64,000 nucleotides of DNA from Chloroflexia bacterium (lineage in GTDB: Bacteria > Chloroflexota > Chloroflexia > QHBQ01 > JADMIH01), in contig DASVVE010000016.1 of NCBI GenBank assembly GCA_036386675.1, positions 122,561-186,560 of the forward strand, read 5' to 3'. Below are positions 4,195 to 38,533 of this stretch, piece after piece (within the stretch, counting starts at the first letter, position 1; each line of letters opens with the position of its first letter). The notes under the pieces were generated by a model. That model did not search any database. It had not been told where the DNA came from and was given only the letters and a program-made list of their open reading frames with translations. Position numbers and translations under genes: made by a program.

Positions 4195-4201
4195 CTGCCC
4201 T

Positions 4202-5742: not shown

Positions 5743-5850
5743 CCCACTGGTCCCGCTTTGACACAGCCGTGGCTATCACCTGTGCTGCTTTGCCTGCATC
5801 GCTTCCGGGGTGTTATAATAGCCGTTGGCTCTCGAGGAGCCTGCTCAACC

Positions 5851-6912
5851 ATGAAGATACTCTCTGTTGTAGGCGCACGGCCGCAATTTATCAAGGCTGC
5901 TCCCGTGAGCCGGGCTATGTCGAGGGCAGGCGTCGAAGAAGTGCTCTTGCATACGGGGCAACACTACGACCCCGCGATGTCCGAGGTCTTTTTCGCGGAG
6001 CTGGACATTCCCGCGCCACGGCACAACCTGGGGGTAGGTTCTGGCTCGCACGCGGGCCAGACCGCTGCTATGCTTGTGGGCATCGAGCAGGTGCTGCTGG
6101 AAGAACGGCCCGATTACCTGCTGATATACGGCGACACCAACTCCACGCTGGCCGGGGCGCTGTCGGCAGCCAAGCTGGGCGTGCCGGTGGCCCACATCGA
6201 GGCGGGGTTGCGCTCCTACAACCGCGCTATGCCGGAGGAGATCAACCGCGTGGTGGCCGACAGCCTATCCAGCCTGCTCTTCTGCCCGACGGCTGCAGCT
6301 TCGGCCAATCTGCAACGCGAAGGCATCACGGGCGGTGTGTTCGTGATCGGTGACGTGATGTACGACGCCATACTCGACTCTCTGCCACGTGCCGAGGACA
6401 TGGCGTCCTCGCTCCTGTCGCGGATTGGAGTGGAGAGCGGTGGGTACTTGCTGGCGACGGTGCACCGGGCGTCCAACACCGACGACCCACGCAACCTGGC
6501 TAACATAGTAGGGGCGCTGAGCGACTCCGGCATGCCTGTGGTCTTCCCGGTACACCCACGCACCCGGAGGGCGCTGGAACAGGCGGGCGTCGTCCCCGGC
6601 GAAAACGTGCGGCAGGTGGAGCCGGTGTCCTACCTTGAGATGGTGGCGCTGGAAAAGCACGCCCGCAAGATACTCACCGACTCGGGAGGCGTGCAAAAGG
6701 AGGCGATGTGGCTGGCGGTGCCCTGCATCACCATGCGCGACGAGACCGAATGGGTGGAAACGGTGGAGCTGGGTTGGAATACCCTCACCGGCACCGACCC
6801 CGCCCGCATACGAGCCGCCATACAAGCCCCGCGTATCCATTCCACCCCACCCGACGTGTATGGTGATGGACACGCGGCAGAGAATATCGTGAATGTGATA
6901 TGTAACACGTAA
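5851..6912 (+). CDS. UDP-N-acetylglucosamine 2-epimerase (non-hydrolysing), WecB/MnaA family
   Basis: MKILSVVGARPQFIKAAPV...HTGQHYD...GDTNSTLAGALSAAKLGVPVAHIEAGLRS. The ORF-track start at 5758 is upstream of the true ATG at 5851. Confidence 0.85.
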   Translation: MKILSVVGARPQFIKAAPVSRAMSRAGVEEVLLHTGQHYDPAMSEVFFAELDIPAPRHNLGVGSGSHAGQTAAMLVGIEQVLLEERPDYLLIYGDTNSTLAGALSAAKLGVPVAHIEAGLRSYNRAMPEEINRVVADSLSSLLFCPTAAASANLQREGITGGVFVIGDVMYDAILDSLPRAEDMASSLLSRIGVESGGYLLATVHRASNTDDPRNLANIVGALSDSGMPVVFPVHPRTRRALEQAGVVPGENVRQVEPVSYLEMVALEKHARKILTDSGGVQKEAMWLAVPCITMRDETEWVETVELGWNTLTGTDPARIRAAIQAPRIHSTPPDVYGDGHAAENIVNVICNT

Positions 6913-6965
6913 CGCGTAACAGACGGGTGCCATTTACGACTTACGAGTTACGTGTTACGAGTCAC
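6901..6965. repeat. Short palindromic element built of CGTAAC/GTTACG repeats, overlapping the last codons of wecB
   Basis: tgtaacacgtaacgcgtaac...ttacgagttacgtgttacgagtcac. The wecB stop taa (6910-6912) lies inside the left arm. Confidence 0.7.
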
Positions 6966-6983
6966 CAAGGAAGGAAACAAGCC

Positions 6984-8063
6984 ATGATTAACATAGCCCG
7001 GCCCATGATAGGGGAGGAGGAGAAGGCGGCGGTGCTTGCCGTGCTCGAGTCGGGGCAACTCGCCCAGGGGGGCGTAGTGGCCGAGTTCGAGCGGGCCTTT
7101 GCCGACTATTGCGGCGTCAAGCACGCGATTGCCACGAGCAACGGCACTACCGCCCTGCACGTGGCCCTTCTCGCCCATGACATAGGGCCGGGAGATGAAG
7201 TAATTACGGTGCCGTTCACCTTCATCGCCTCGGCTAACTCCGTGCTCTACACCGGGGCGAAGCCTGTGTTCGTAGACATTGAGCCGGACAGCTTCAACAT
7301 CGACGTGGACCAGGTTGAGGCGGCGATTACCCCTCGCACGAAGGCCATCATGCCGGTGCATTTGTACGGTAATATAGCCGAGATGTCGCGCCTTATGGAG
7401 ATAGCAGAGCGGCACGGCCTTGTCGTGATCGAAGATGCCGCCCAGGCGCATGGGGCCGAAGATGGTGGAAAGCGGGCCGGTAGCTGGGGCACGGGCTGCT
7501 TTTCTTTCTACCCGACTAAGAACATCACCACCGGCGAGGGTGGGATGATTACCACCGACGACGACTGCGTAGCCGACAAGGCCCGGCTGGTGCGCGGACA
7601 TGGCATGCGCGTGCGCTACTACCACGAGATGCTGGGCTTCAACTTCCGCATGACCAACATCCACGCCGCGATAGGCATGGCACAACTCCCCAAGCTCGAA
7701 GGCTTCAACGCTCGCCGCATCGAGAACGCCGCGTATTTGAGCGAGCACCTGCCTTCCGACAAGGTGCGCGTGCCCACGGTCCGGCCCGGCACGCGCCACG
7801 TCTTCCACCAGTACACGGTGCGCATACTTCCACCGCTGGACAGGGACGACGCCCGCAAGCAGCTTGCCGAGTCGGGAGTGGGCAGCGAAATCTACTACCC
7901 CGTGCCCGTCCACCGGCAGCAGTTCTACACGGAGCAGGGCGACTGGGGGAGTTTCCCTGTGTCGGAGCAGGCCTCTCAGGAGGTGCTGTCGCTCCCGATC
8001 CACCCAGGCCTCAGCCGCCAGGACCTTGAGACTATTGTAGATGCCGTGCGGGGCCTGGGCTAA
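6984..8063 (+). CDS. DegT/DnrJ/EryC1/StrS-family PLP-dependent sugar aminotransferase (WbpE/PglE-like)
   Basis: MINIARPMIGEEEKAAVLAVLESGQLAQGG...ATSNGTTALH. RBS aaggaagg. The ORF-track start at 6927 is not the real start. Confidence 0.85.
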   Translation: MINIARPMIGEEEKAAVLAVLESGQLAQGGVVAEFERAFADYCGVKHAIATSNGTTALHVALLAHDIGPGDEVITVPFTFIASANSVLYTGAKPVFVDIEPDSFNIDVDQVEAAITPRTKAIMPVHLYGNIAEMSRLMEIAERHGLVVIEDAAQAHGAEDGGKRAGSWGTGCFSFYPTKNITTGEGGMITTDDDCVADKARLVRGHGMRVRYYHEMLGFNFRMTNIHAAIGMAQLPKLEGFNARRIENAAYLSEHLPSDKVRVPTVRPGTRHVFHQYTVRILPPLDRDDARKQLAESGVGSEIYYPVPVHRQQFYTEQGDWGSFPVSEQASQEVLSLPIHPGLSRQDLETIVDAVRGLG

Positions 8064-8065
8064 CG

Positions 8066-9100
8066 ATGAGCAACCCGCCCGGCATGGACTCCCGCCCTCC
8101 GAAGCTAGCCGTCATAGGCGCAGGCTCGATGGGCCGCAACCACCTGCGCGTGCTGAACGACCTGGAGTCGGTGGATCTGGTGGGCGTGGCCGATGCAGAC
8201 CTTGCCACCGCCGAGCGGGTCGCCCGCCGCTTCCACATCTCGGCTTATGGTAGCTACGCCGATCTGCTGGACAGGGAACGGCCTGATGGGGTGGTAGTGG
8301 CGGTGCCCACGGTGCTGCACCGGGAGGTGACGCTGGCGGCCATAGAACGCGGGGTGCATGTGCTGGTGGAGAAGCCGATAGCATTCACGGTAGCCGAGGG
8401 CCAGGAGATGATCGAGGCGGCCCGGCAGGCAGGGGTGATCCTCACGGTGGGGCATATCGAGCGCTACAACCCGGCGATACTGGAGTTGCACAAGCGGCTC
8501 AGGGAGCAGCAGCTTGGCCGGGTCTTCCAGATGAACGCACGCAGGCTCGGCCCCTTCCCGCCCCGCGTGCGTGACGTTGGTGTGGTCATCGATCTGGCGA
8601 CGCACGATGTCGACATAATGCGCTTCTTGAGCGGCTCGGAAGTGGTGCGGGTGCAGGCCGAGACCGCCCGCCGCATCCACACCGAGCACGAGGACCTGCT
8701 GTCCGGGCTGCTCCGTTTCGAGAACGACTCGATTGGTGTGCTAGATATTAACTGGCTGACGCCCACCAAGATACGCGAGCTGATGATTACCGGGGAGCGG
8801 GGCGCGTTCCAGGTGAACTACCTGACCCAGGACCTATACTTCTACGAGAATAATTACGCCAAGACCGACTGGGACACCATCTCGAACATCGAGGGGGTGA
8901 GCGAGGGCGACATGGTCCGCCTACGCATCGAGAAGACCGAACCGCTACGCGTGGAACTTGACCGATTCGCCCGCGCCATCAGGGGCGAAGAAGTGTCCAT
9001 AGTATCGGGCGAGGACGGGCTGCACGCCCTGCACGTAGCTACAAAAATTGTGGAGTCGGGGCTAGAGGGTAGGGCCATCTATTTGAGCGAGGAAGGTTAG
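8066..9100 (+). CDS. Gfo/Idh/MocA-family NAD-dependent oxidoreductase (WbpB-like UDP-sugar 3-dehydrogenase)
   Basis: N-terminal Rossmann fold KLAVIGAGSMGRNHL and the EKP motif of the Gfo/Idh/MocA family. Adjacent to the aminotransferase. Confidence 0.8.
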   Translation: MSNPPGMDSRPPKLAVIGAGSMGRNHLRVLNDLESVDLVGVADADLATAERVARRFHISAYGSYADLLDRERPDGVVVAVPTVLHREVTLAAIERGVHVLVEKPIAFTVAEGQEMIEAARQAGVILTVGHIERYNPAILELHKRLREQQLGRVFQMNARRLGPFPPRVRDVGVVIDLATHDVDIMRFLSGSEVVRVQAETARRIHTEHEDLLSGLLRFENDSIGVLDINWLTPTKIRELMITGERGAFQVNYLTQDLYFYENNYAKTDWDTISNIEGVSEGDMVRLRIEKTEPLRVELDRFARAIRGEEVSIVSGEDGLHALHVATKIVESGLEGRAIYLSEEG

Positions 9101-9103
9101 GTC

Positions 9104-10408
9104 TTGGAGAAAGCAGCGCGGAGTGAGTACAGAGTAGCGGTCGTGGGCCTGGGCAAGATCGGCCTGCCCCTGGCGGCGCAGTTCGCGCACAACGGCCTGG
9201 AGGTCATGGGCTGCGACATATCCCAAGAGGTAGTAGATACCATCAACTCCGGGCACTCCCACGTCAAAGAGGAGCCGGGGCTTGAAGAGATGGTAGCCGA
9301 GGGAGTGAGCGCGGGCCGCCTTACCGCCACCATCGACACGTCCGCCGCCGTAAGCCGCTGCAACGTGGTAGTTGTGATTGTACCGCTGATGGTGGACGAG
9401 GGGCGCAACATCGATTATCGAGCTATTGATTCCGCCACTCGCTCGGTCGCTGAGGGGTTGCAGCGCGAAACGCTGGTCATATACGAAACGACGCTGCCCG
9501 TGGGCACCACGCGCACCCGGCTGGGTTCGATGTTGGAGCAGGGTTCAGGGCTGGCTGCCGGCCGCGATTTCTGCCTGGCGTTCAGCCCTGAGCGCGTCTA
9601 CAGCGGTCGTATATTCAGCGACTTGCACAAGTACCCCAAGGTGGTCGGCGGGGTGACGCCGGAGTGCACAGCTTCTGCCGAGCGTTTCTACGCCGTGGCC
9701 CTGGAAGGCGCGCCCGTATTGCCCATGCGCGATGCCGATACCGCCGAGTTCGTCAAGCTGGTCGAGACCACCTATCGCGACGTGAACATCGCCCTCGCCA
9801 ACGCCTTCGCCCGCTTCGCCGCCGAGCGCGACATACCTGTGCTAGAGGCGATTGCGGCGGCCAACACGCAGCCTTTCTCCCACGTCCACCGGCCCGGCAT
9901 AGCGGTGGGCGGGCACTGCATCCCTGTCTACCCCTACTTCCTGATGAACAGTACCGAGGACGACGGTATGTCGCTGGTACGGCGCGCCCGCGAGCTTAAC
10001 GACAGCATGGTAGCGTGGGCGCTCGACCGGCTTGAGGAGTCGCTGGGCGGGTTGAGCGGCAAGAGGGTGCTGGTGCTGGGGCTAGCATACCGGGAGAACG
10101 TCAAGGAAACGGCTTTTTCCGGGGCCGTCCGCCTGCTGAGCGAGTTGAAGGCGCGGGGCGCGGTGCCTCTCATCAACGACCCGCTCTACAGCACCGAGGA
10201 ACTCGCCCGCTACGCCGAGCCTAGCCAACTGGACGACCTGCCTGCCTTCGATGCGCTGGTGCTCCAGGCGTACCACGAGGAATACCGCAACCTCGATTGG
10301 ATCCGCATGTCAGAGCATGGTTGCAAGGTGGTGCTCGACGGACGCAACGCGCTCGCTCGCGCCGAAATAGAGGGCTCCGGTATGCGCTACACCGGCATAG
10401 GGCAATAG
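9104..10408 (+). CDS. UDP-sugar 6-dehydrogenase (UDP-GlcNAc/ManNAc dehydrogenase, WbpA/WecC family)
   Basis: RVAVVGLGKIGLPLAAQF with nucleotide-sugar dehydrogenase central and C-terminal domains. TTG start. Confidence 0.85.
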   Translation: MEKAARSEYRVAVVGLGKIGLPLAAQFAHNGLEVMGCDISQEVVDTINSGHSHVKEEPGLEEMVAEGVSAGRLTATIDTSAAVSRCNVVVVIVPLMVDEGRNIDYRAIDSATRSVAEGLQRETLVIYETTLPVGTTRTRLGSMLEQGSGLAAGRDFCLAFSPERVYSGRIFSDLHKYPKVVGGVTPECTASAERFYAVALEGAPVLPMRDADTAEFVKLVETTYRDVNIALANAFARFAAERDIPVLEAIAAANTQPFSHVHRPGIAVGGHCIPVYPYFLMNSTEDDGMSLVRRARELNDSMVAWALDRLEESLGGLSGKRVLVLGLAYRENVKETAFSGAVRLLSELKARGAVPLINDPLYSTEELARYAEPSQLDDLPAFDALVLQAYHEEYRNLDWIRMSEHGCKVVLDGRNALARAEIEGSGMRYTGIGQ

Positions 10409-10456
10409 CCCGTGAGTTCCGATGCCTGACGCTGTCAAGAAGGTGGGTGTTCGCGC

Positions 10457-11647
10457 ATGAAGGTCCTCTGTATATTCGGCACGCGGCCGGAGGCGATCAA
10501 GATGGCCCCTGTGCTCCACCACTTGCGCCAATACCCGGGCACCATCAGCGCCAAGGCTTGCGTGACCGGGCAGCACAGGCAGATGCTCGACCAGGTGCTA
10601 CAGGTCTTCGACATCCAACCCGATTACGACCTGTCTATCATGACTGAGGACCAGACCCTTGCTACACTGACGGCCAGGGCACTTACCGCCCTCGACCCGG
10701 TCATCGCGCAGGAACGGCCGGACTGGATATTGGTGCAGGGCGATACCACCACCGCTATGGTGGGTGCGCTGGCGGCCTTCTACCATCGCCTGCAAGTGGG
10801 GCACGTCGAAGCCGGGTTGAGGACCTGGAACAAATACCATCCCTATCCCGAAGAGATCAACCGGAGAATAGTGGATTGCATCGCCGATCTGCATTTTGCC
10901 CCGACACAATGGGCGGCTGATAATTTGTTGCGGGAGGGGGTGCCGGAGAGTGGCGTGCTCGTCAGTGGGAACACCGTTGTAGACGCTCTCATCTCCGTCA
11001 CCGAAAAGCCGCTGTCCGAGCAGACCGAGCGTATACTTAGGGAGTTGGGAGTTTCCCCGGAAAGAGGTCACTCGGACCCGACAAGTGGCCTGTCGCTCGC
11101 GGCACGGGGTCACGGTCCGCCATTGCTCCTGGTAACTGCCCACCGCCGCGAGAACTTCGGCGGCCCCCTGGAGAACATATGTGACGCCCTGGGTGAAATC
11201 GCCAGGCGGCGGAGTGACGTACGCATCGTGTTCCTGGTGCATCTGAACCCCAACGTCCAGAAGGTAGTGCGTTCTCGCCTGGGGGAAGCAAAGAACATAA
11301 GCCTGATACCGCCCGTTGACTATCAGACGATGGCCCACCTGATGAAGCATTCCTACCTGATACTTACCGATTCGGGCGGGCTACAGGAGGAAGCGCCGAC
11401 GTTCCACGTGCCTGTACTGGTGATGCGCGAAACCACCGAGCGGCCGGAGGCCCTTGAGGCTGGTACGGCCCGGCTGGTAGGCACTCAGGCTGAGGATATA
11501 GTAGATCACGTGTCGCGCCTTCTCGACCGTTCGGATGAATATCGCGCCATGTCGGGGGCGCCGAACCCTTTTGGTGACGGGCATGCCGCCCCACGTATAG
11601 TGAAGGCCCTGATGGAGCGCAGCTCCAGGTTAGCGTACAGAGGCTGA
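10457..11647 (+). CDS. Second UDP-N-acetylglucosamine 2-epimerase paralog (WecB/WbpI-like)
   Basis: MKVLCIFGTRPEAIKMAPV...TGQHRQMLDQVL...GDTTTAMVGALAAFY...VEAGLRT. Confidence 0.85.
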   Translation: MKVLCIFGTRPEAIKMAPVLHHLRQYPGTISAKACVTGQHRQMLDQVLQVFDIQPDYDLSIMTEDQTLATLTARALTALDPVIAQERPDWILVQGDTTTAMVGALAAFYHRLQVGHVEAGLRTWNKYHPYPEEINRRIVDCIADLHFAPTQWAADNLLREGVPESGVLVSGNTVVDALISVTEKPLSEQTERILRELGVSPERGHSDPTSGLSLAARGHGPPLLLVTAHRRENFGGPLENICDALGEIARRRSDVRIVFLVHLNPNVQKVVRSRLGEAKNISLIPPVDYQTMAHLMKHSYLILTDSGGLQEEAPTFHVPVLVMRETTERPEALEAGTARLVGTQAEDIVDHVSRLLDRSDEYRAMSGAPNPFGDGHAAPRIVKALMERSSRLAYRG

Positions 11648-11677
11648 TGTATAGTCCTTCTCCTGTAACAGCATAGA

Positions 11678-13018
11678 TTGAACAAGTTTTTACCACCCTG
11701 GGCCAGAAATAAGCGTGCGGCGATGCTGCCGATAGGGTCGGTACGAGCGCGCCTGGCCTCCGGCACCTTCTGGGCGGTAATCGGGGCGGTACTATCGCAG
11801 GTGCTGGCATTGGTGGCTGCCGTCATTGTGGCGAGGTTGTTGGGCCGCACGGGCTTCGGGGAGCTAGGCATCCTCATCAGCACGGTCGGCACGTTCGGGA
11901 TAGTCGCGGGACTGGGGCTGGGTACCACCGCCACCAAGTACGTGGCCGAGCTACGTACAAGCGACCCGGCGCGTGCGGGGCAAATCCTCGGCTTATCAAT
12001 CTGGACTGCCGTGGTGACGGGCAGCCTTGCATCGGTGCTGCTCTTTGTGCTCGCGCCGGTGCTTGCGGCGGACGTCATCAACGCCCCTCACCTGGTGAAC
12101 GAGCTACGCCTGAGTTGCGGAGTGCTATTCTTCAGCGCCCTCAACGGCGCGCAACTGGGCGTGCTCTCGGGTCTTGAGGCGTTCAAACCCCTTGCCTACT
12201 TGAACGTGGTACGAGGGTTGCTTCAATTCCTCCTGACCGTAGCGGGGGTGGTGCTGTTCGGCTTTGTGGGAGCCGTGCTTGCGCTCGTAGCGGGCAATGC
12301 TCTGGCCTGCGCGCTCTATGAAGTGGCGGTTCGACGTGAGTGCCGCCGCGCCAACATCAAGTTTGAGTACCGGGGTACTCGTTCCGAGTGGCGCATTTTG
12401 TGGACGTTCGCCTTTCCCGCTTTCATGTCCGGAGCGATGTATACGCCTGTTGTCTGGGCGGGGAACGCGGCGCTGGCTAATCAGCCGAACGGGCTGGATG
12501 AACTCGGCTTGTTCAACGCCGCCAACCAGTGGCGCATGGCGATGATGTTCCTCCCCGGCGTGCTGGGTCAGGTTGTGATGCCTATCTTATCCAACTTATA
12601 CGGCGAGGGACGTGGCAGTAGCTATCGCAAGGTGTTGTTCGGCAACCTGGCGATTACGTTTGTCCTGAGCTTTGGCGCGGCGCTCGTACTTATCCTGGCC
12701 GCGCCCCTCATCATGTCGGCCTACGGCAGCGACTTCACTCAGGGCACGCAGGTACTCATACTCATGCTCCTTTCAACGGTACTCACATCAACCTCGGGCG
12801 TGGTCGGATACAGCATAGCGAGCCAGGACCGCATGTGGCACGCCTTCTGGCTCAATCTCATATGGGCGGCGGCTTTCGGCCTCTTCGTCTACCTCTTCAT
12901 CGGTCTGAAAGCTTATGGGCTGGCGCTGGCGTACCTGCTCTCCTACGCTATACACGCCGTCACGAGCACGTTGTATATGGTCTGGTCCCTTAAAAACAAG
13001 CGAGTGGCCGATGCCTAG
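11678..13018 (+). CDS. MOP-superfamily oligosaccharide flippase (Wzx-like)
   Basis: 446 aa with ~12 TM and a Polysacc_synt-like profile. TTG start at 11678; an alternative ATG is at 11723. Confidence 0.7.
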   Translation: MNKFLPPWARNKRAAMLPIGSVRARLASGTFWAVIGAVLSQVLALVAAVIVARLLGRTGFGELGILISTVGTFGIVAGLGLGTTATKYVAELRTSDPARAGQILGLSIWTAVVTGSLASVLLFVLAPVLAADVINAPHLVNELRLSCGVLFFSALNGAQLGVLSGLEAFKPLAYLNVVRGLLQFLLTVAGVVLFGFVGAVLALVAGNALACALYEVAVRRECRRANIKFEYRGTRSEWRILWTFAFPAFMSGAMYTPVVWAGNAALANQPNGLDELGLFNAANQWRMAMMFLPGVLGQVVMPILSNLYGEGRGSSYRKVLFGNLAITFVLSFGAALVLILAAPLIMSAYGSDFTQGTQVLILMLLSTVLTSTSGVVGYSIASQDRMWHAFWLNLIWAAAFGLFVYLFIGLKAYGLALAYLLSYAIHAVTSTLYMVWSLKNKRVADA

Positions 13019-14282
13019 AGTGCTGGTAATAAGATACGAGGGCCAACCTTTCCTGGTGAGGATGTCGAAGCTGCTGAGGACGATGCTCGACTCCGGCTGG
13101 CAGGTGGACGTGCTGATTCCCAGGGGCGGGTTGGGTGCGACAAACGTCTCTAAGGAAATGGGGCGCGACCTCACCGGGGAAGTAACATTGCTGGAGTTTC
13201 CCCATGAACTTCCCCGCACGATACCAGAGAGGTTGCTATATCGTCTCTCCGGGACGGGCTTCTTCGGCAGCAGCGAGTTCCGGCGCTACCTGACCGGTCT
13301 CCTTTCGAGGCAGAAGTACGACCTTATCTGGGCCAAGGATACGCCTATACTCCCGGCTGTCTTTCATGCGATAAAGAGGTCCGGCCACCCTCCGGTGCGG
13401 GTCGTGTGCGACATGTACGAGAATATCACCGAGCAGGTCTATGATACGTTCGTACGATACGGCAAGCTGTACGAACGGCTGTTGACGCAGGCTTCGCTGC
13501 TGATTAGCCGCCTGCGCCGGGCTGAGAGGCTATACCTTGCACGCTGCGACCATATATTCGTTGTGGTGGATACGGCCAAGACTTTTCTTGTGAAGCGCTA
13601 CGGTCTCGAGCCGTCCCGCATAACGGTAGTGCACAACGTCGAGATTCTGTCGGACTTCGACCGGATCGAGCCTGGACAGCCACTGCTTGATACGGACGTG
13701 CCGCTCATTTCCTTCGTCGGCGGTTTCGGCCCCCATCGTGGCATAGACACGCTGCTGGAGGCTGTGGCGCTGCTGGTTTCAAGGGGTGAGACGCGCTTCC
13801 GGCTGGCCCTGGTTGGTGCTTCCGGCTCGGAGCTTGCTCGCCTGGAAAGCGTCTGCCGGGAGCGCGGCCTGCAAGAGGTAGTTGTGCTGCGGGGGTATCT
13901 CTCACACCGCGAGGCGATGCGCTGGATGAAGCAGTCGAATATCGGTGTCATTCCGCACGTGAACACGCCGCAGATCAGAACTACCATACCAAATAAGTTG
14001 TTCCAGTATATGGCTGCCGGGGTACCTTGTATCGTGTCCGATGTGGGGCCGCTCGGCAGGATCGTGCGTCAGACAGGCTGTGGTCTTACCTTCCCGGCGG
14101 GGAACGCGCCGGAGCTAGCGGCTAGAATCGCCGATTTGCTGGCACACCCGGAGCAGATGCTGGAGCTTGGCAGGAACGGCAGAGCCAGTGTCGAGCGCCA
14201 ATACAGGTGGGAGATAGAAGGGCAAGAGTATGCTCGTTACCTCCTGGGCGTCATGAGTGCTATCCAGGACGTAAGCAAATAG
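13011..14282 (+). CDS. Glycosyltransferase family 4 (GT-B)
   Basis: C-terminal EX7E-type region (FVGGFGPHRGIDTLLEAV...IPNKLFQYMAAGVPCIVSD). The ATG at 13011 overlaps the flippase stop, so the ORF-track start at 12915 is too early. Confidence 0.8.
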   Translation: MPRVLVIRYEGQPFLVRMSKLLRTMLDSGWQVDVLIPRGGLGATNVSKEMGRDLTGEVTLLEFPHELPRTIPERLLYRLSGTGFFGSSEFRRYLTGLLSRQKYDLIWAKDTPILPAVFHAIKRSGHPPVRVVCDMYENITEQVYDTFVRYGKLYERLLTQASLLISRLRRAERLYLARCDHIFVVVDTAKTFLVKRYGLEPSRITVVHNVEILSDFDRIEPGQPLLDTDVPLISFVGGFGPHRGIDTLLEAVALLVSRGETRFRLALVGASGSELARLESVCRERGLQEVVVLRGYLSHREAMRWMKQSNIGVIPHVNTPQIRTTIPNKLFQYMAAGVPCIVSDVGPLGRIVRQTGCGLTFPAGNAPELAARIADLLAHPEQMLELGRNGRASVERQYRWEIEGQEYARYLLGVMSAIQDVSK

Positions 14283-14291
14283 AGGCTCCTG

Positions 14292-14300
14292 TGCTATACT
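14292..14300 (+). promoter_or_regulatory. Extended -10 promoter (TGcTATAcT) positioned for a leaderless transcript of the downstream GT-like gene
   Basis: tgctatact ends 7 nt before the ATG at 14308, and no RBS is present. Confidence 0.4.
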
Positions 14301-14307
14301 TTTAGTT

Positions 14308-15399
14308 ATGGGACGCACACGGGAGCCGGTTTCTCACTTATCCAGGCCGCGAATCCTCCACGCCCCCGCGAACATAGCGGGCATAGCGGGACTCCTCGCA
14401 CAGGCGCAACGGGACCTGGGCATCGACTCTACATCCGTCGAGTACTTTCAACGACCCTTCAGCTTTGGCGTTGACAGGACGCTAGCTTTGCAAGCCACGG
14501 ACGGGCGTGTCAAGAAAGCGGCCGCGATGGGCAGGTTCGCACTGGGTGCCCTTGCGCGTTACGACGTGTTTCACCTCTATTTCGGTAACACTTTGCTGCC
14601 GCGTCCATACCCTGATTTGCGGCTGCTTCGCGCGCTCGGCAAGCGTATTGTCTTCCACTTTTGCGGCTGTGAGTTGCGGCGACGGGAACCAAACGTCACC
14701 AAGTATTCGCTCAGCGCCTGCACCGATTGCGTGTCACACAGGTGTTCGTACCTGAAACACCCAGACCTCTCTTCGGCTGACGTGCTGATAGTGTCCACAC
14801 CCGACCTGCTCGAATTCGCTCCAGGGGCGCACGTATTGCCGGGGCCGGTGGACCTCGACCGCTGGACGCCAAAGGTCTCGCGTGGGGTACCGGTATCCAG
14901 GTCCGAGCCGGTACGGATCGTTCACGCGCCGACGAACCGGGAAGTAAAAGGTACCAAACATCTGCTTGCCGCGGTTGAGCGCCTCAACAGTGCCGGGTAC
15001 CCGGTTGAACTCGACCTGCTGGAGGGATTGCGGCACGAGCAAGTGCAGGTGCTCTCCGGGCGGGCGGATATCGCGGTGGACCAGCTGATGATTGGCTCAC
15101 ATGGCACCTTCTCGGTTGAGATGATGGCAATGGGCCTGCCGGTGGTCTGCCGCATACGTGAAGACTTGCGGAAGTTCTATCCACCCGACTTGCCTGTGAT
15201 AACCGCAGAGCCGGGCAGCATCTACGAGGTGCTGGAGTCGCTAATAACGCGGCCGGACACCTGGGCGGAACATGGCAGGCGTGGTATCCGGTACGTGCAA
15301 CGCGAGCACGAGATGCACCGTGTGGCCGCACGCGCCCTGTCGCTCTACAAAGTGGGCCTCAGTACGGCTGTCGCTGAGTACGTGGCAGCCGAGGCGTAA
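14308..15399 (+). CDS. GT-B-fold glycosyltransferase-like protein with a conserved Cys cluster (paralog A)
   Basis: C-terminal half is GT4-like (KGTKHLLAAVERL...SVEMMAMGLPVVC). Unusual insertion HFCGCELRRREPNVTKYSLSACTDCVSHRC. Confidence 0.6.
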   Translation: MGRTREPVSHLSRPRILHAPANIAGIAGLLAQAQRDLGIDSTSVEYFQRPFSFGVDRTLALQATDGRVKKAAAMGRFALGALARYDVFHLYFGNTLLPRPYPDLRLLRALGKRIVFHFCGCELRRREPNVTKYSLSACTDCVSHRCSYLKHPDLSSADVLIVSTPDLLEFAPGAHVLPGPVDLDRWTPKVSRGVPVSRSEPVRIVHAPTNREVKGTKHLLAAVERLNSAGYPVELDLLEGLRHEQVQVLSGRADIAVDQLMIGSHGTFSVEMMAMGLPVVCRIREDLRKFYPPDLPVITAEPGSIYEVLESLITRPDTWAEHGRRGIRYVQREHEMHRVAARALSLYKVGLSTAVAEYVAAEA

Positions 15400-15464
15400 G
15401 CAACCTGCTTCTTCCAGCATTTCGGCTCGCCTGTACGTGTACTGGCGGCAAGTCACGGTAGCTG

Positions 15465-15473
15465 TGCTATAAT
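15465..15473 (+). promoter_or_regulatory. Extended -10 promoter (TGcTATAAT), leaderless arrangement for paralog B
   Basis: tgctataat ends 8 nt before the ATG at 15482. The same ctgtgctataNtttt context is duplicated upstream of paralog A. Confidence 0.45.
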
Positions 15474-15481
15474 TTTCTCGT

Positions 15482-16612
15482 ATGAAACGTACATGGGAGC
15501 CGGTGCATCTCAAACATAGACCCAGGATACTCCATGCTCCGGCCAATGTCGCGGGCAGAGCCGGACTACTCGCCAGGGCGCAGCGTGACCTTGGTTTTGA
15601 CGCAACATCCGTCGAATACTTCCAACGTCCCTTCGACTTTGGTGTGGACCGGTCGTTAGGTCTGCGGCCGGCGGATGGCCGGGTGAAAAAAACGGCCAGG
15701 ATGGGCATGTTTGCCCTCGGTGCCTTCAGGCGGTACGATGTGTTCCATCTCTATTTCGGTAACACTTTGCTGCCGCACCCTTACCCGGACTTGCCGGTCC
15801 TTCGCTCCCTGGGTAAACGCATTGTCTTTCATTTTTGCGGCTGTGACATACGCCAGCGGGAATATACCCTCGATAAGTATTCACTCAGTGCGTGCACAGA
15901 CTGTATCTTGCAACCGTGCAAGCACGCGAGACACCCGGACCTCTCCGCGTGTGACATCGTCTCTGTGTCGTCGCCGGACTTACTGGAGTTCGCTCCGGGG
16001 GCGCAGCTGCTGCCGGGACCGATTGACCTGGAAAAATGGAGGCCGAAGGTATTGCGCCGGGAGCCGCCATCCCACTCTGACCCCGTACGTATCATTCACG
16101 CACCGACCGACCGCGACATAAAGGGTACTAAATACCTGCTTGCCGCAGCCGAGCGGCTCAAGAGTGCCGGGTACCCTGTGGAAGTTACCCTCCTGGAGGG
16201 CCTATCCCACGACCAGATACACGTGCTCTCCGAGCAGGCCGATATCGTGGTGGACCAACTGATGCTCGGCGTACATGGCATGTTTGCCGTCGAGATGATG
16301 GCAAGGGGCCTGCCCGTAATATGCCGGATACGCGAGGACCTGAGACGGTTCTATCCTCCCGACCTACCCCTAATCACGGCAGAGCCGGGCAGCATTTACG
16401 ACGTCCTCGAATCGCTGCTTACTCAGCCGGAGCGTTGGGCTGACCTCGGCCGCCGGGGCATCGAGTACGTACGGCGCGAGCATGAGATGCACCGTGTGGG
16501 GGCTCTTTCCCTGTCGCTGTATAACGTGCACGTGGATACGAGCATCAAGTCTACGCTACACGACGCTGTTCCTGGTTCTAATGGCTTCGAGAGCGAGCTA
16601 AGGCAAAATTGA
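15482..16612 (+). CDS. GT-B-fold glycosyltransferase-like protein with a conserved Cys cluster (paralog B)
   Basis: Roughly two-thirds identical to paralog A by eye; same HFCGCDIRQREYTLDKYSLSACTDCILQPC motif. Confidence 0.6.
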   Translation: MKRTWEPVHLKHRPRILHAPANVAGRAGLLARAQRDLGFDATSVEYFQRPFDFGVDRSLGLRPADGRVKKTARMGMFALGAFRRYDVFHLYFGNTLLPHPYPDLPVLRSLGKRIVFHFCGCDIRQREYTLDKYSLSACTDCILQPCKHARHPDLSACDIVSVSSPDLLEFAPGAQLLPGPIDLEKWRPKVLRREPPSHSDPVRIIHAPTDRDIKGTKYLLAAAERLKSAGYPVEVTLLEGLSHDQIHVLSEQADIVVDQLMLGVHGMFAVEMMARGLPVICRIREDLRRFYPPDLPLITAEPGSIYDVLESLLTQPERWADLGRRGIEYVRREHEMHRVGALSLSLYNVHVDTSIKSTLHDAVPGSNGFESELRQN

Positions 16613-16654
16613 CATACCATCTTCACTTACCAAATATTCCTACGAGCCACGTAC

Positions 16655-18178
16655 GTGCTGTCCAGGCTCTCTAGTCTCTCCAAAGATGCCGTCGTCTACG
16701 GGCTGGCCGGGGCCGTCGCGCGCGTCTCCGGGCTGGTGCTCCTGCCTGTGTACACCCGCGTCTTCGAGGACACAGAGAGCTACGGCGTATGGCAGATAGT
16801 GAGCATCTTCGGCGCTTTGCTGGTGGCGGTGGCCGCGCTGGGTCTTGACGGCGCGACCTCAATCCTCTACTTCGCGACCGACTCCCCTGACGAGCGGAAG
16901 CGCATCACTACGCTGTGGGCCTCTATGTCGCTGGTGGTGGCGGTGCCGCTTACCCTGCTGCTCGTTCTGCTCTCCGGCCCGATTTCCAGCCTGACCACCG
17001 GCTCGGAGCGGTATACGGACCTCTTTATTGTAGGCATAGCCCTGCTGCCGTTCAACATACTGCAACTGGTGGTGGCGGGCATCTTGCGCTTGCACTTCCG
17101 ACGCCTAGCTTACGCCGCGCTCAACCTGGGGCTGACGGTCTTGGTGCTCTCCACAAGCATCTACCTGGTGGTTGGCCTCCGCATGGAGGTGATGGGCGCG
17201 CTGCTGGGCACGCTGCTGGGCACGGCGGTGGCCGCAATCGCCGGCCTATGGACGGTGCGCTCCGCCGTCGATTGGCGGCTGCTGACTTCGGAGGCCTGGC
17301 CTCTGGCTGCCAGGCTGCTCCAACTGGGCGCGCCCCTGGTGCCGGCGGCTGCCGCCCTGTGGGTACTCGGCTTCTCCAATGCCTTCTTCGTGGCTCGCCT
17401 CCTCAGTACCAGCGATACCGGCGTTTTCCGCGTCGGCGCGCAGATCGCCTCGGTGCTGGGGATAGCGGTGTACGCTTTCCAGTTCGCGTGGTCGCCGTTC
17501 AGCCTCTCCATAGCGCGGGAGCCTGATGCCGGGAAGGTCTATTCCAGGGTAGGGATACTCTATACCGCGGTTTCGGTGGGAGCCGCCGTCCTGCTGGGTG
17601 GGGCCGCTCCCATAGTGCTGCTGCTGGCAAGGGGTGACTACGCCCCGGCCGCTACGGTAATTGGGCTGCTTGCCCTGTCCATGGCCTCGGTCGGCTCGTA
17701 CTATATCTTTGCGGTAGGCGGGGGTATCGCCCAGCGGACCGGGCCGGTGGGTTGGACCAACGTGGTCGCGGCCATCGCCAACGTCGCCCTCAACGCCGCA
17801 CTCATCCCGCTCTGGGGCATCGTGGGCGCGAGTATTGCTTCGCTGGCCGCGAATCTATTATCTATAATACTCCTCTATACCGTGTCGCAACGCATCTACC
17901 CGGTACCCTTCGACGGGTTGAGGATGGCGGGCGTCTGGCTGGTGGGTACGGCGGCGGTAGCAATTGCGGCCCTGTTCAACATCTCGGTACAACCGTCACC
18001 GCTGATGTCGATGGGGTTTACGCTCCTGCTCATGCTAGGTTACGTAGTGGCGCTCTTCCTCATGGGCGCGGTCACGCCTCGACAGCTATCGTTGGGGCTG
18101 GCGGGGGTCAGGTCGGCGCTGGGGAGAGGTCCGGCCGCCCCGGTATCGGGGGGCACGGCGGGCGAGGGCAGGAGGTAG
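16655..18178 (+). CDS. Second MOP-family polysaccharide biosynthesis/flippase protein (507 aa, ~14 TM)
   Basis: GTG start; hydrophobic throughout with a Polysacc_synt-like N-terminus (VVYGLAGAVARVSGLVLLPVYTRVF). Confidence 0.7.
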   Translation: MLSRLSSLSKDAVVYGLAGAVARVSGLVLLPVYTRVFEDTESYGVWQIVSIFGALLVAVAALGLDGATSILYFATDSPDERKRITTLWASMSLVVAVPLTLLLVLLSGPISSLTTGSERYTDLFIVGIALLPFNILQLVVAGILRLHFRRLAYAALNLGLTVLVLSTSIYLVVGLRMEVMGALLGTLLGTAVAAIAGLWTVRSAVDWRLLTSEAWPLAARLLQLGAPLVPAAAALWVLGFSNAFFVARLLSTSDTGVFRVGAQIASVLGIAVYAFQFAWSPFSLSIAREPDAGKVYSRVGILYTAVSVGAAVLLGGAAPIVLLLARGDYAPAATVIGLLALSMASVGSYYIFAVGGGIAQRTGPVGWTNVVAAIANVALNAALIPLWGIVGASIASLAANLLSIILLYTVSQRIYPVPFDGLRMAGVWLVGTAAVAIAALFNISVQPSPLMSMGFTLLLMLGYVVALFLMGAVTPRQLSLGLAGVRSALGRGPAAPVSGGTAGEGRR

Positions 18179-18180
18179 CG

Positions 18181-18600
18181 GCGAGTGCCGAGTGCGAACG
18201 ACCGGCTAATGGTACTTATCCTACCATCCTGGTACCCTACTGGGAGGTACCCGATGGGTGGGGTCCTCATGGAGGAGCAGGCGCGGCCTCTATACTGAAG
18301 AAGCGTGGGGTTGAAGTGATGTTGGACCTTATGGGAGATGGCCGCAACGGACGCGAATACGCGGCGACCGGCGTGGCCGACCTATGCCGTTTCCATGATA
18401 CGCTGCGACATGAGGAAGTAGTCAAAATGATACGTGGTTATGATGTGCTGGTGGTGTGCTCCCTTGCCGAGACCTTTGGGGTGGTGGCGGTGGCGGCGAT
18501 TGCCCCGGAGTGCCGGTGGTGGCGACACGCTCTGGCGGGCCGGAGGGGATAGTGACGGCCACCAGGGCGGCACTTTACAGGGAAGTCCTAGGGGGTTGCG
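18181..18600 (+). pseudogene. Remnant of a GT4 glycosyltransferase (C-terminal domain only, frameshifted)
   Basis: Frame 1 encodes ...ILKKRGVEVMLDLMGDGRNGREY...EEVVKMIRGYDVLVVCSLAETFGVVAVAAIA, then the +1 frame encodes PVVATRSGGPEGIV. No N-terminal GT domain is present because the fragment directly abuts the flippase stop. Confidence 0.6.
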
Positions 18601-18606
18601 GTTAAT

Positions 18607-19809
18607 ATGAAAGTGCTGATGATCGTGCAGGAGCCGGTAATCACCCGGCGCATCCTCCAGGAAGCCCGCAGCCTCATAGAAGCAGGGCACAGCGTCAGCA
18701 TCCTTTCGCGCGCCGGGGGCACGGAAGATACGGTTGAGGAAGTGGACGGCATAACTGTGGAATGGGTGGCCGTGAGGGGCCGCGATCCTCGCTTTGGTTG
18801 GCTTTACCGCCTGGTGGGCGACAACCTCGGCAGCAACGTGGCCGCCCTGTGGAGCGTGCTGACGATGCGTCACACCTTTACCTTGAGGGCCTTCGCCAGG
18901 GCTGTAGCGGCTAAAGCGGACGTGTATCACGCGCACGACCTGAACAACCTTGAGCTTGCCTGCCGCGCCGCTCGGTCGAACGAGGCTCGCGTAGTATTCG
19001 ATTCCCACGAGCTATTCACCGAGCTAGGCAACCGCTGGATACAGTTGAGGCGCAGGGCCTGGACGAGGCTGGAGAGCAAGCTCATCAAGCGGGCGGAATT
19101 CGTGGTGACGGTCAACGAGTTCATCGGTGAAGAACTAGCCACGCGGTATGGCGTGCCTGCCCCGCTCGTAGTGATGAACTGCCCCGATCCACCATCTGAC
19201 TTCGACCCCTCCAAGGGCTACAACATCCTCCGCGAGCGCCTCGGAATGTCTTCCGATCGCAAGATTGTGCTTTACCAGGGCTGGATGTCGGAGGGGCGGG
19301 GCCTCGAAAGCCTGGTGAGGTGCGCGCCCCTGCTGGCGGATGACGCGGCGGTGGTCTTCATAGGCTACGGCGACTACCAGGAGGTGCTGGCGCGTATCGC
19401 GCTGGAGGAAGCGCCGGGGCGGGTGTACTTTCTCCCGGCTGTGTCCCACCGTGAGCTGCTGCCATACTGCGCCTCGGCTGACGTGGGCCTCATCCCCTAC
19501 CAGGCCGTGGACCTGAACAACTACTATTCCTCGCCCAACAAGCTCTTCGACTACATCCAGGCTGGTCTGCCGATAGTCGCCAGCGACTTCCCGTTCCTGC
19601 GCAAGGTAATAGCCACCGACAACCTGGGCGTGGTGGCCGAGTTGAGCACGCCGGAGAGCTACGCCAGGGCCATCAACCAGGTGCTGACCCTGCCCGATGG
19701 CGGTGAGCAAATACGGTCCAACATGCGCCGCGTCGCCCCAGGTTACACGTGGCAGAGCCAGGCACGCGGGCTGGTCTCGGCATATGAAAAGCTGTCAGCG
19801 GGCGGCTGA
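18607..19809 (+). CDS. Glycosyltransferase family 4
   Basis: 400 aa; YHAHDLNNL...FIGYGDYQEV...SPNKLFDYIQAGLPIVASD. Confidence 0.85.
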   Translation: MKVLMIVQEPVITRRILQEARSLIEAGHSVSILSRAGGTEDTVEEVDGITVEWVAVRGRDPRFGWLYRLVGDNLGSNVAALWSVLTMRHTFTLRAFARAVAAKADVYHAHDLNNLELACRAARSNEARVVFDSHELFTELGNRWIQLRRRAWTRLESKLIKRAEFVVTVNEFIGEELATRYGVPAPLVVMNCPDPPSDFDPSKGYNILRERLGMSSDRKIVLYQGWMSEGRGLESLVRCAPLLADDAAVVFIGYGDYQEVLARIALEEAPGRVYFLPAVSHRELLPYCASADVGLIPYQAVDLNNYYSSPNKLFDYIQAGLPIVASDFPFLRKVIATDNLGVVAELSTPESYARAINQVLTLPDGGEQIRSNMRRVAPGYTWQSQARGLVSAYEKLSAGG

Positions 19810-21178: not shown

Positions 21179-21250
21179 TGGACGGACGATAGACGATAGA
21201 CGATAGACGATGGCTTGTTTCCTATCGTCCGCCGTCCATCGTCTATCGTC
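21179..21250. repeat. Minimal GACGATAGAC/GTCTATCGTC hairpin element inside the oppD-oppF intergenic gap
   Basis: ggacggacgatagacgatagacgatagacgatgg-cttgttt-cctatcgtccgccgtccatcgtctatcgtcc. Confidence 0.75.
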
Positions 21251-28343: not shown

Positions 28344-28380
28344 CTAACCCTCTCTCCTCACAAACTGGTGTAGCTAAACA

Positions 28381-38408: not shown

Positions 38409-38428
38409 TGTTGTTTTACCTCGCTTGT

Positions 38429-38529: not shown

Positions 38530-38533
38530 TCGG

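What the first reader, a model, noticed from the sequence alone, without database searches (positions are those of the whole stretch)
14283..16612. Tandem paralogous GT-B glycosyltransferase-like genes with a conserved four-Cys insertion and duplicated leaderless extended -10 promoters
The two genes share the unusual motif HFCGC[ED][IL]RxRE...KYSLSACTDCxxxxC inside an otherwise GT4-like fold, which suggests a Zn-binding insertion. Each is preceded by the same ctgtgcTATA(a/c)Ttttc promoter-like sequence ending 7-8 nt before the ATG, with no Shine-Dalgarno. The promoter was duplicated with the gene and the mRNAs are probably leaderless.
Basis: partly seen in the sequence, partly recalled or inferred. 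Interest (0 to 1): 0.55.

Follow-up and report, generated by a model that had tools for sequence, protein, structure and literature searches.

The report
Cys4 GT4-like glycosyltransferase pair, leaderless promoters
Two neighbouring sugar-transferase genes in a soil Chloroflexia polysaccharide cluster belong to a large uncharacterised enzyme family with a probable four-cysteine metal site, and each appears to be transcribed from its own promoter placed right at the start codon; it is a tidy example of known phenomena, not a new kind of system.

Summary
Genes A (14308-15399) and B (15482-16612) are 72% identical paralogs. Each lies 7-8 nt downstream of CTGTGCTATA(C/A)TTTT and has no Shine-Dalgarno sequence. 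That 15-mer occurs nowhere else in the window, with 0 matches expected by chance.

The motif holds five cysteines. C121, C138, C141 and C146 behave as one four-ligand unit:
- They are present or absent together across 364 domains.
- One subfamily with Ala at 121 has a fourth cysteine in the loop instead.
- Two members have His in place of C141.

This supports a metal site, probably structural Zn, though neither the metal nor the geometry was tested. The segment is a remodelled loop rather than an inserted domain. C119 is variable.

The T(G/T/A)TGnTAnA(A/C)T box lies 5-9 nt before the start codon in 23 Chloroflexia-type loci (A and B included). Homologs from other phyla have SD-like sequences instead. 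That is strong comparative support for leaderless transcription, but it is not TSS proof.

A and B are old paralog lineages, not a recent duplication. Interest is moderate to low.

The parts
14290..14300 (+). Extended -10 promoter-like box of gene A: TGTGC + TATACT, followed by a 7-nt spacer (14301-14307) before the ATG
   Evidence: Sequence read. The 15-mer is unique to the two sites, with 0 expected by chance. The same box is conserved in orthologs L002/L003.
14308..15399 (+). Gene A, 363 aa, divergent GT4-like GT-B protein of the A-type lineage (86% identical to the L003 ortholog)
   Evidence: (PF13524, 29 bits against a cutoff of 25).
14656..14745 (+). Gene A Cys motif, residues 117-146: HFCGCELR...SACTDCVSHRC
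15463..15473 (+). Extended -10 promoter-like box of gene B: TGTGC + TATAAT, followed by an 8-nt spacer (15474-15481) before the ATG. An in-frame TAA lies inside the box.
   Evidence: Conserved in L001, L082 and L083.
15482..16612 (+). Gene B, 376 aa, divergent GT4-like GT-B protein of the B-type lineage (76-78% identical to L001/P0001/P0002)
15830..15919 (+). Gene B Cys motif, residues 117-146: HFCGCDIR...SACTDCILQPC. Proposed ligands are C121, C138, C141 and C146.
   Evidence: The modelled secondary structure has strand 113-118, short helices 126-132 and 137-140, coil to 158, then strand 159-162.
13011..14282 (+). Upstream canonical GT4 glycosyltransferase (GT4a). Its stop codon lies 25 nt before gene A's ATG.
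   Evidence: Pfam Glycos_transf_1 and Glyco_transf_4. JGI gene call.
16655..18178 (+). 507-aa membrane protein (MOP/Wzx-like; orthologs carry Pfam Polysacc_synt). It is the conserved downstream partner of the B-type or A-type gene.
5758..19809 (+). Surrounding co-oriented polysaccharide gene cluster: two UDP-GlcNAc 2-epimerases, a DegT aminotransferase, a GFO oxidoreductase, a UDP-sugar dehydrogenase, Wzx, GT4a, A, B, MOP507 and GT4b
   Evidence: Pfam scans. Synteny with L003.

Best explanation
A and B are two old paralog lineages of a large, uncharacterised, divergent GT4-like (Pfam PF13524-type) GT-B transferase family. They sit side by side in a Wzx-dependent polysaccharide cluster of an uncultured soil Chloroflexia bacterium, and each most likely adds one sugar to a lipid-linked repeat unit.

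The N-terminal domain carries a four-cysteine metal site (C121 at the end of strand 113-118, plus C138, C141 and C146). It is most probably structural Zn. It would staple an irregular, basic 40-residue loop where Cys-free relatives have an ordinary segment of similar length. By inference this shapes the acceptor- or membrane-facing surface next to the catalytic cleft. C119 is a lineage-specific extra cysteine; it appears to occupy the slot of the usual His of HG(S/T)D, and this register is inferred rather than tested.

Each gene has its own extended -10 promoter (TGTGC-TATA(C/A)T, weak -35) placed so that transcription should begin at or within 1-3 nt of the ATG. This would give leaderless mRNAs translated without a Shine-Dalgarno sequence.

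Shown: paralogy, fold, family breadth, Cys covariation, and conservation and gene-specific enrichment of the promoter box.
Inferred: metal binding and metal identity, role of the loop, transcription start, and donor/acceptor.
For: Paralogy and fold:
- 72% identity between A and B.
- AF2 pLDDT 90.5 and pTM 0.88.

Family breadth:
- 11,620 / 6,740 / 2,480 50%-identity clusters at E<=1e-3 / 1e-10 / 1e-30.
- 370 loci in GTDB genomes from Chloroflexota, Proteobacteria, Planctomycetota, Eisenbacteria, Firmicutes, Cyanobacteria and Archaea.
- Residues conserved family-wide include H206, K214-G215, D258-Q259, G263 and E271. This is consistent with an active enzyme.

Cys site:
- C121/C138/C141/C146 are invariant in 111/111 close homologs; C119 is present in 109/111.
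- Across 364 domains, Cys at position 121 goes with at least 3 Cys in the next 34 residues in 247/258 cases. Ser/Thr/Asp at 121 goes with 0-1 Cys.
- 24 domains with Ala at 121 carry CxxCx6CxC, four Cys inside the loop. This looks like ligand relocation.
- L037 and L041 have C141 replaced by His.

Promoter:
- The 15-mer is unique to the two sites.
- 23 loci share T(G/T/A)TGnTAnA(A/C)T, then 5-9 nt, then a start codon (22 ATG, 1 GTG), while the -35 region and flanks have diverged.
- In the scan of 27 Chloroflexia loci (308 kb), the box-plus-ORF-start pattern fell 16 times on the homolog and about 8 times on other genes.
- In the window it marks only A and B at real gene starts.
- Many other window genes have a clear SD.
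- Homologs from other phyla start at MRILHGP and most have an SD-like GGAG/GAGG upstream with no -10 box.
- The JGI gene caller truncated both genes to 290 and 215 aa.
- A second tandem pair, each copy with its own box, is in L091.
- Zheng et al. 2011 report TAtaaT-type leaderless genes at about 4.7% in Chloroflexi genomes (PMC3160421).
Against: - There are no TSS or RNA data.
- The cluster is co-oriented and tightly packed, with no convincing terminator between GT4a, A, B and MOP507. Read-through transcripts almost certainly exist as well.
- Metal identity is unknown. A Cys4 site in another GT-B enzyme, TibC, binds Fe (PMC4358343).
- The family lacks the first Glu of the GT4 EX7E motif (Gly263). 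It reaches Pfam thresholds only for PF13524. Glycosyl transfer is therefore inferred from fold and context, not shown.
- Six or seven Chloroflexia-type orthologs (L016, L018-L020, L022, L023, L025) lack the box.
- Several of the 23 loci are close relatives and are not independent (for example, L007 and L009 have identical upstream sequence).
Confidence: 0.68

Rival explanations
1. The Cys cluster binds iron (a rubredoxin-like Fe(Cys)4 site or an Fe-S cluster) rather than Zn. It may act as a redox or oxygen sensor or as an oligomerisation element, not a passive staple.
For: TibC, a GT-B heptosyltransferase, has a Cys4 'iron finger' needed for assembly and activity (PMC4358343). The C-x2-C-x4-C spacing plus a remote Cys and a fifth nearby Cys (C119) would also fit an Fe-S site. 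From my own recollection, unchecked: ThiC uses a CX2CX4C motif for a [4Fe-4S] cluster.
Against: Cys-to-His replacement at one ligand (L037, L041) and simple relocation of the fourth ligand are typical of structural Zn sites. No redox partner genes lie nearby. The site is dispensable in many family members, which have Ser at 121 and no Cys. That fits a structural role better.
Confidence: 0.15
2. The conserved TGnTAnnnT box is not an active promoter. A and B are translated from a long polycistronic mRNA by SD-independent initiation on the A/U-rich upstream stretch, or by re-initiation after the upstream stop codon.
For: All genes from 5758 to 19809 are co-oriented with short gaps (25, 82 and 42 nt around A and B) and there is no good terminator. 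The box is A/T-rich in a 59% GC genome. The generic sigma-70 scan, which needs both hexamers, did not flag either site.
Against: The conserved positions are exactly those that define an extended -10 element: T1, A2, A4, T6 and the TG two bases upstream are 23/23, while position 3 is free. General A/U-richness would not produce that pattern. Spacing to the start codon is fixed at 5-9 nt. 22/23 starts are ATG. The 82-nt A-B gap is long for re-initiation.
Confidence: 0.17
3. The proteins are not sugar transferases. They would be GT-B-fold enzymes with another chemistry (transfer of a non-sugar group from an activated donor), or non-catalytic partners of the neighbouring GT4s.
For: The first Glu of EX7E is an invariant Gly. 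There is no Pfam GT4 N-domain hit, and Glycos_transf_1 scores below its cutoff (21.8 against 26.4). NCBIfam has no family for them.
Against: The best structural neighbours are all nucleotide-sugar GT4 enzymes. The family keeps a K-G phosphate-binding-type motif, E271 and many invariant polar residues. It is fused to canonical GT4 and methyltransferase domains in multidomain proteins typical of polysaccharide synthesis. It sits in glycan clusters.
Confidence: 0.12
4. The cysteines form disulfides or are simply conserved surface residues, with no metal bound.
For: No direct metal evidence and no 3-D distances were obtained here.
Against: The enzyme is predicted to be cytoplasmic, which is a reducing environment. 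The all-or-none pattern involves four residues, the count stays at four when one ligand moves, and His substitutes for one Cys. None of that fits disulfides.
Confidence: 0.04

Closest known systems
GT4 retaining glycosyltransferases (BshA 6n1x, PimA 2gej, sucrose-phosphate synthase 6kih, PglH/WlaC)
   Different: Only 11-18% identity. The first Glu of EX7E is Gly263. No Pfam Glyco_transf_4 N-domain match. A family-specific signature (HxP...KG, DQ...G..G....E). The Cys4 loop follows the N-domain strand that ends in xGCD. The window's own canonical GT4b gives no meaningful profile match (hhalign probability 1.4%).
Pfam PF13524 Glyco_trans_1_2 ('Glycosyl transferase-like')
   Same: It is the only curated model that A and B pass (29 and 27.2 bits, cutoff 25), covering residues 270-344.
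   Different: The model covers only the last third of the protein and says nothing about the N-domain or the Cys motif. No characterised member was found in the literature searches.
TibC/BAHT heptosyltransferase 'iron finger' (PMC4358343)
   Same: A GT-B enzyme with a tetrahedral Cys4 metal site embedded in the catalytic fold that is needed for structural integrity. It serves as a mechanistic precedent.
   Different: In TibC the module is an insertion in the C-lobe, about 20 A from the cleft, and mediates dodecamer assembly. Here the site is in the N-domain, directly after the strand carrying the HG(S/T)D-equivalent motif. There is no sequence relationship, and the metal here is unknown.
Bacterial leaderless genes with a TANNNT box about 10-12 nt upstream of the start (Zheng et al. 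2011, PMC3160421)
   Same: TAnnnT with its first T 13-14 nt before the ATG, no SD, ATG start. Chloroflexi are reported to have about 4.7% such genes with a TAtaaT-like signal. In this window the count is 2, possibly 3, of about 45 genes.
   Different: Here the arrangement is tied to one gene family and conserved across diverged Chloroflexia genomes, while most neighbouring genes lack the box. The box is of the extended (TRTGn) type with no conserved -35.

Membership tests
GT-B fold / CAZy GT4-like | Two Rossmann-like domains with an inter-domain cleft; closest structures are GT4 enzymes | tested here: met
GT-B fold / CAZy GT4-like | EX7E motif in the C-terminal domain | tested here: not met
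   The first Glu aligns to Gly263, conserved in 98% of 364 domains. Only the second Glu (E271, 97%) is kept.
GT-B fold / CAZy GT4-like | Pfam Glycos_transf_1 (PF00534) and Glyco_transf_4 (PF13439/PF13579) above gathering score | tested here: not met
   B scores 21.8 bits on PF00534 against a cutoff of 26.4, and A gets no hit. Neither has an N-domain hit. Only PF13524 passes.
GT-B fold / CAZy GT4-like | Nucleotide-sugar-dependent glycosyl transfer | not testable with these tools
   Needs an enzyme assay. Context is supportive only.
Structural Cys4 (Zn-type) metal site | Four conserved ligands including a CxxC knuckle | tested here: met
   C121, C138-x2-C141 and C146 are invariant in 111/111 close homologs.
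Structural Cys4 (Zn-type) metal site | Ligands gained and lost together; ligand count preserved; Cys/His interchange | tested here: met
   247/258 domains with Cys121 have at least 3 downstream Cys, whereas Ser/Thr/Asp121 domains have 0-1. 24 Ala121 domains have four loop Cys. C141 is His in L037 and L041.
Structural Cys4 (Zn-type) metal site | Tetrahedral geometry (S-S distances about 3.5-4 A) in the 3-D structure | not testable with these tools
   Structure prediction returned no coordinates. Only secondary structure and pLDDT (88-93 over residues 121-150) are known.
Structural Cys4 (Zn-type) metal site | Bound Zn, as opposed to Fe or no metal | not testable with these tools
   Needs metal analysis of purified protein.
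Extended -10 sigma-70-type promoter | TAnnnT hexamer with TG one base upstream (TGnTAnnnT); -35 dispensable | tested here: met
   TGTGC-TATACT and TGTGC-TATAAT. TG, T1, A2, A4 and T6 are 23/23 in related loci. By my own reading, the -35 positions match TTGACA at only 3/6.
Leaderless gene (sense of Zheng et al. 2011) | -10-like box about 10-12 nt upstream of the start codon and no SD | tested here: met
   Spacers of 7 and 8 nt. No GGAG/GAGG within 20 nt. Many other window genes have a clear SD.
Leaderless gene (sense of Zheng et al. 2011) | Transcript 5' end at or within a few nt of the start codon | not testable with these tools
   No transcriptome data were available. No Rfam element lies in the region.
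TibC-type iron finger | Cys4 two-knuckle insertion in the C-lobe of a GT9-like heptosyltransferase | tested here: not met
   The site here is in the N-domain (residues 119-146) of a GT4-like fold. TibC features are from PMC4358343. It is an analogy only.

The most novel reading that the evidence does not exclude
The xGCD...CxxCx(3-5)C proteins would form a distinct, phylum-spanning glycosyltransferase family that deserves its own CAZy/Pfam entry. Its N-domain metal site (Zn or a redox-active Fe centre) would be an integral part of acceptor (lipid-PP-glycan) recognition or of redox control of envelope polysaccharide synthesis. In Chloroflexia the family would be locked to leaderless expression because its product is needed under conditions where SD-dependent initiation is limiting.
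Probability: 0.12. Interest if true: 0.6.

Novelty: new variant of a known kind. Interest (0 to 1): 0.35.

Why it matters
- Annotation. The JGI gene calls for both genes are truncated by 73 and 161 residues because the caller could not accept an SD-less start. The same error probably affects other members of the family in Chloroflexia metagenomes, and the conserved TRTGnTAnAMT-N5-9-ATG rule offers a simple fix.
- Enzymology. A family with thousands of sequence clusters has no specific Pfam or NCBIfam model for its N-domain, lacks the first Glu of EX7E, and exists in metal-site and metal-free versions. That gives a natural experiment on what a Cys4 staple contributes to a GT-B acceptor domain.
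- Gene expression. It is a clean, comparatively supported case of gene-specific leaderless internal promoters inside an otherwise SD-using operon, in a phylum where leaderless genes are reported at only about 5%.

None of this overturns current understanding.

Tried and rejected
- Cys-Cys distances could not be measured. The model's coordinates are not exposed.
- The afdb50 fold library was unavailable.
- Sequence search of the PDB with the single protein or the profile aligned only the C-terminal domain. hhalign against the window's canonical GT4b was meaningless (probability 1.4%). The equivalence of position 119 to the GT4 HG(S/T)D His therefore rests on the Cys-free family members (FHGSD[IV]R) and on my own knowledge of GT4 motifs.
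- NCBIfam gave no family.
- tblastn against plasmids returned only generic 'glycosyltransferase family 1 protein' labels at 31% identity or less.
- The metagenome-contig scan returned only distant relatives (32-43% identity) and not the source contig.
- Literature searches for PF13524 and for Zn/Cys GT4 enzymes found no characterised member.
- The fixed-spacer pattern was badly designed (6-nt spacer only) and found nothing.
- The terminator-like hit at 15454-15466 is a 5-bp stem overlapping promoter B. I judged it to be chance.
- Rejected: recent tandem duplication. A groups with L002/L003 and B groups with L001/L082/L083.
- Rejected: leaderless expression as this organism's default. Only A and B, and possibly the gene starting at 36825(-), show the layout in 64 kb.
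Full report
**1. What is in the sequence**

The two ORFs are as described: A at 14308-15399 (363 aa) and B at 15482-16612 (376 aa). They are 72% identical over 355 residues with no gaps. Both contain HFCGC(E/D)(L/I)R...KYSLSACTDCxxxxC.

Each ATG is preceded by CTGTGCTATA(C/A)TTTT, at 14289-14303 and 15462-15476. This string occurs nowhere else in the window on either strand, and none of 100 shuffles produced a match. The -10 hexamers are TATACT (14295-14300) and TATAAT (15468-15473). They end 7 and 8 nt before the ATG, and each follows TGTGC, which makes them extended -10 elements. By my own reading of the sequence, the -35 positions match TTGACA at only 3/6.

Neither gene has an SD within 20 nt. 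Many other genes in the window have GGAG/GGAGG 6-10 nt upstream of their likely starts. The starts are unambiguous: in-frame stops lie 11 and 3 codons upstream with no other start codon between. The next candidate starts downstream would delete the conserved first strand and loop (RILHAPxNxAG). The JGI gene caller did exactly that, producing 290-aa and 215-aa products (P0050 and P0051). The window comes from JGI metagenome 3300034760, contig Ga0334948_000014.

**2. What the proteins are**

Pfam gives only a marginal PF13524 'Glycosyl transferase-like' match to the last 75 residues (29 and 27.2 bits, cutoff 25). PF00534 scores below its cutoff, and there is no GT4 N-domain hit. NCBIfam has nothing.

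The family is very large. A profile search found 11,620 / 6,740 / 2,480 50%-identity clusters at E<=1e-3 / 1e-10 / 1e-30. There are 370 loci in one-genome-per-species GTDB contigs, spanning Chloroflexota, Proteobacteria (Thauera, Bradyrhizobium, Achromobacter), Planctomycetota, Eisenbacteria, Firmicutes, Cyanobacteria and several archaeal groups.

Family-wide conserved residues include R35, D56, D86, K112, G120, R124, H206, P208, K214-G215, D254, D258-Q259, G263, G266, E271, H334 and Y347. That pattern is consistent with an active enzyme. However, the first Glu of the GT4 EX7E motif is Gly263; only the second Glu (E271) is kept.

Multidomain relatives fuse this module to canonical GT4 domains or methyltransferases. 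In the window it sits in a co-oriented cluster: two UDP-GlcNAc 2-epimerases, a DegT aminotransferase, a GFO oxidoreductase, a UDP-sugar dehydrogenase, a Wzx flippase, GT4a, A, B, a 507-aa MOP-type membrane protein, and GT4b. From my own knowledge, this gene set resembles the WbpA/B/E/I route to 2,3-diacetamido uronic acids. A role as a polysaccharide glycosyltransferase is therefore the best reading, but it is inferred.

**3. The cysteines**

The motif holds five Cys, not four. In 111 full-length close homologs (down to about 39% identity), C121, C138, C141 and C146 are invariant, and C119 is present in 109.

More distant members show what belongs together. Among 364 aligned domains:
- 247 of the 258 with Cys at position 121 have at least three Cys in the next 34 residues.
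- Domains with Ser/Thr/Asp at 121 (the FHGSD[IV]R type) have none or one.
- 24 domains, mostly from roughly 1,000-aa two-module proteins, have Ala at 121 but four Cys in the loop (NFCxxCPxPGxFCxC). The count of four is kept by moving a ligand.
- Two Anaerolineae members (L037, L041) have His in place of C141.

Position 119 is variable among Cys121 proteins (C 176, H 34, Q 22, others). In the Cys-free members this position is most often His (FHGSD). By inference it corresponds to the His of the GT4 HG(S/T)D motif.

All-or-none inheritance, a preserved ligand count and Cys/His exchange are the signature of a tetrahedral metal site. Zn is the default expectation for a cytoplasmic structural site. 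Fe cannot be excluded, because the GT-B enzyme TibC carries an Fe(Cys)4 'iron finger' (PMC4358343).

The segment is not an inserted domain. Cys-free relatives have about the same number of residues between the two strands. The model shows strand 113-118, two short helices (126-132, 137-140) and a long coil to strand 159-162, at pLDDT 88-93. The loop is basic (R124 at 93%, R126, K132, K/R149-150). I propose, as inference, that the metal staples an irregular acceptor- or membrane-facing surface beside the cleft. I could not measure S-S distances because no coordinates were returned.

**4. The promoter box**

In 23 loci (A, B, 19 Chloroflexia MAG loci and two metagenome contigs) the start codon is preceded by T(G/T/A)TGn-TAnA(A/C)T:
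- T1, A2, A4, T6 and the TG are 23/23, while hexamer position 3 is free.
- The spacer is 5-9 nt, with a mode of 6-7.
- 22 of the 23 starts are ATG.
- The -35 region and all other flanking sequence have diverged.

Several of these loci are close relatives, so they are not 23 independent observations.

In the scan of 27 Chloroflexia loci (308 kb), the pattern 'box + 5-9 nt + start of an ORF of at least 100 aa' fell 16 times on the homolog itself and only about 8 times on other genes. In the window it marks only A and B at genuine gene starts; two further matches lie deep inside ORFs. One non-extended candidate is at 36825(-).

Homologs from other phyla start directly at M(R/K)I(L/F)HGP. Most have an SD-like GGAG/GAGG about 8-14 nt upstream, and none has a -10 box. 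The arrangement is therefore specific to Chloroflexia and comes with a poorly conserved 8-14 residue N-terminal extension (pLDDT 57).

This matches the published description of bacterial leaderless genes (TANNNT about 10-12 nt upstream of the start). Chloroflexi are reported there at about 4.7% of genes with a TAtaaT-like signal (PMC3160421).

It is not proof. The cluster is co-oriented, gaps are short, and no convincing terminator separates GT4a, A, B and MOP507. Read-through transcripts are expected in addition, and only 5'-end mapping can settle where transcription starts. No Rfam family matches anywhere in the window.

**5. History of the pair**

A and B are not a recent duplication.
- The closest syntenic relative, L003 (flanking genes 85-99% identical), has a single A-type gene (86% to A) between GT4a and MOP507.
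- L001, L082 and L083 (flanking genes 75-82% identical) have a single B-type gene (76-78% to B) in front of MOP507.
- A neighbour-joining tree groups A with L002/L003 and B with L001/L082/L083.

The pair therefore reflects an old duplication with differential loss, or recombination between variant clusters. Every member of both lineages carries the box, so the promoter predates the split. 'Duplicated with the gene' is right only in that sense.

A second tandem pair, each copy with its own TGTGCTATAAT + 7-8 nt + ATG, is in L091 (JGI 3300039219). Its first copy is frameshifted.

**6. Verdict**

- There are five Cys, of which four form the unit.
- The segment is a remodelled loop, not an insertion.
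- The metal is unidentified.
- The fold is GT4-like, but the family fails sequence-level membership tests for canonical GT4.
- The paralogs are old.

The components are all of known kinds: a GT-B transferase, a Cys4 metal staple and a leaderless extended -10 promoter. What is new is modest. First, this is a very large, unnamed family with a metal-site variant that no literature search here found characterised. Second, leaderless expression is linked to this gene family and conserved within a phylum where leaderless genes are reported to be uncommon. I rate it 'new variant of a known kind', interest about 0.35.

Noticed in passing
window 2829-2978, 3989-4208, 6934-6962, 21185-21211, 22953-22996, 37906-38933, 52234-52263, 59346-59443: Many intergenic regions carry short tandem heptamer repeats of 3-8 copies (e.g. 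ATCGTCC, GACGATA, CAGTCCT, GGATAGT/CTATCCA, AGTGCCG). Related units recur at distant sites and on both strands. From my own knowledge they resemble cyanobacterial STRR repeats.
   Followed up: partly
window 16609-16638 (and the equivalent sites in L001, L004, L082, L083): A perfect TTGACA overlaps gene B's TGA stop codon. It is followed 17-18 nt later by a GATAnT/AATATT -10-like hexamer about 16 nt before the GTG/ATG start of the 507-aa MOP-type gene, which also lacks an SD. The arrangement is conserved in B-type loci but not in L003, so a third internal promoter is likely.
   Followed up: partly
window 14308-16612 (JGI calls = L081 1563-2435 and 3001-3648): The public JGI annotation truncates gene A to 290 aa and gene B to 215 aa and calls a spurious 58-aa ORF between them on the opposite strand. 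In L082 the caller instead extended the B-type gene upstream through the promoter box.
   Followed up: yes
L091 1975-3017 and 3219-4349: A second tandem pair of family members, from another metagenome, where each copy has its own TGTGCTATAAT box. The first copy is split by a frameshift near 2613-2667 and is called as two fragments, so it is either a pseudogene or an assembly error.
   Followed up: partly
P0126, P0128, P0133, P0138, P0142, P0150, P0155-P0161 (about 1,000-1,700 aa proteins): Multidomain proteins contain two copies of the family module. Each copy has YGAD in place of xGCD and a four-Cys loop, NFCxxCPxPGxFCxC. This is a distinct subfamily in which the fourth ligand has moved into the loop.
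   Followed up: partly
window 36825 (- strand start; gene 35893-36825): This is the only other candidate leaderless start in the window: ggacTATAATtgcgtATG, with a 5-nt spacer and no TG extension, opening a 310-aa ORF two codons after an in-frame stop.
   Followed up: no
window 25037-35738 (- strand): Very large ORFs (1,003, 374, 1,469 and 291 aa) have third-position GC of only 0.53-0.60, against 0.70-0.83 for most genes in the window. This could mean foreign origin or unusual composition.
   Followed up: no
window 5758-11647: The gene set of two UDP-GlcNAc 2-epimerases, a DegT aminotransferase, a GFO/MocA oxidoreductase and a UDP-sugar dehydrogenase resembles, from my own knowledge, the WbpA/B/E/I route to UDP-2,3-diacetamido-2,3-dideoxy-mannuronic acid. 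No acetyltransferase was seen among the genes scanned.
   Followed up: no
L016 (Gaiellaceae MAG, 58% identical to B): An actinobacterial MAG carries a Chloroflexia-type family member with Asn at position 119 and an SD (GGGGGAGG) instead of the -10 box. This could be horizontal transfer or a binning error.
   Followed up: no
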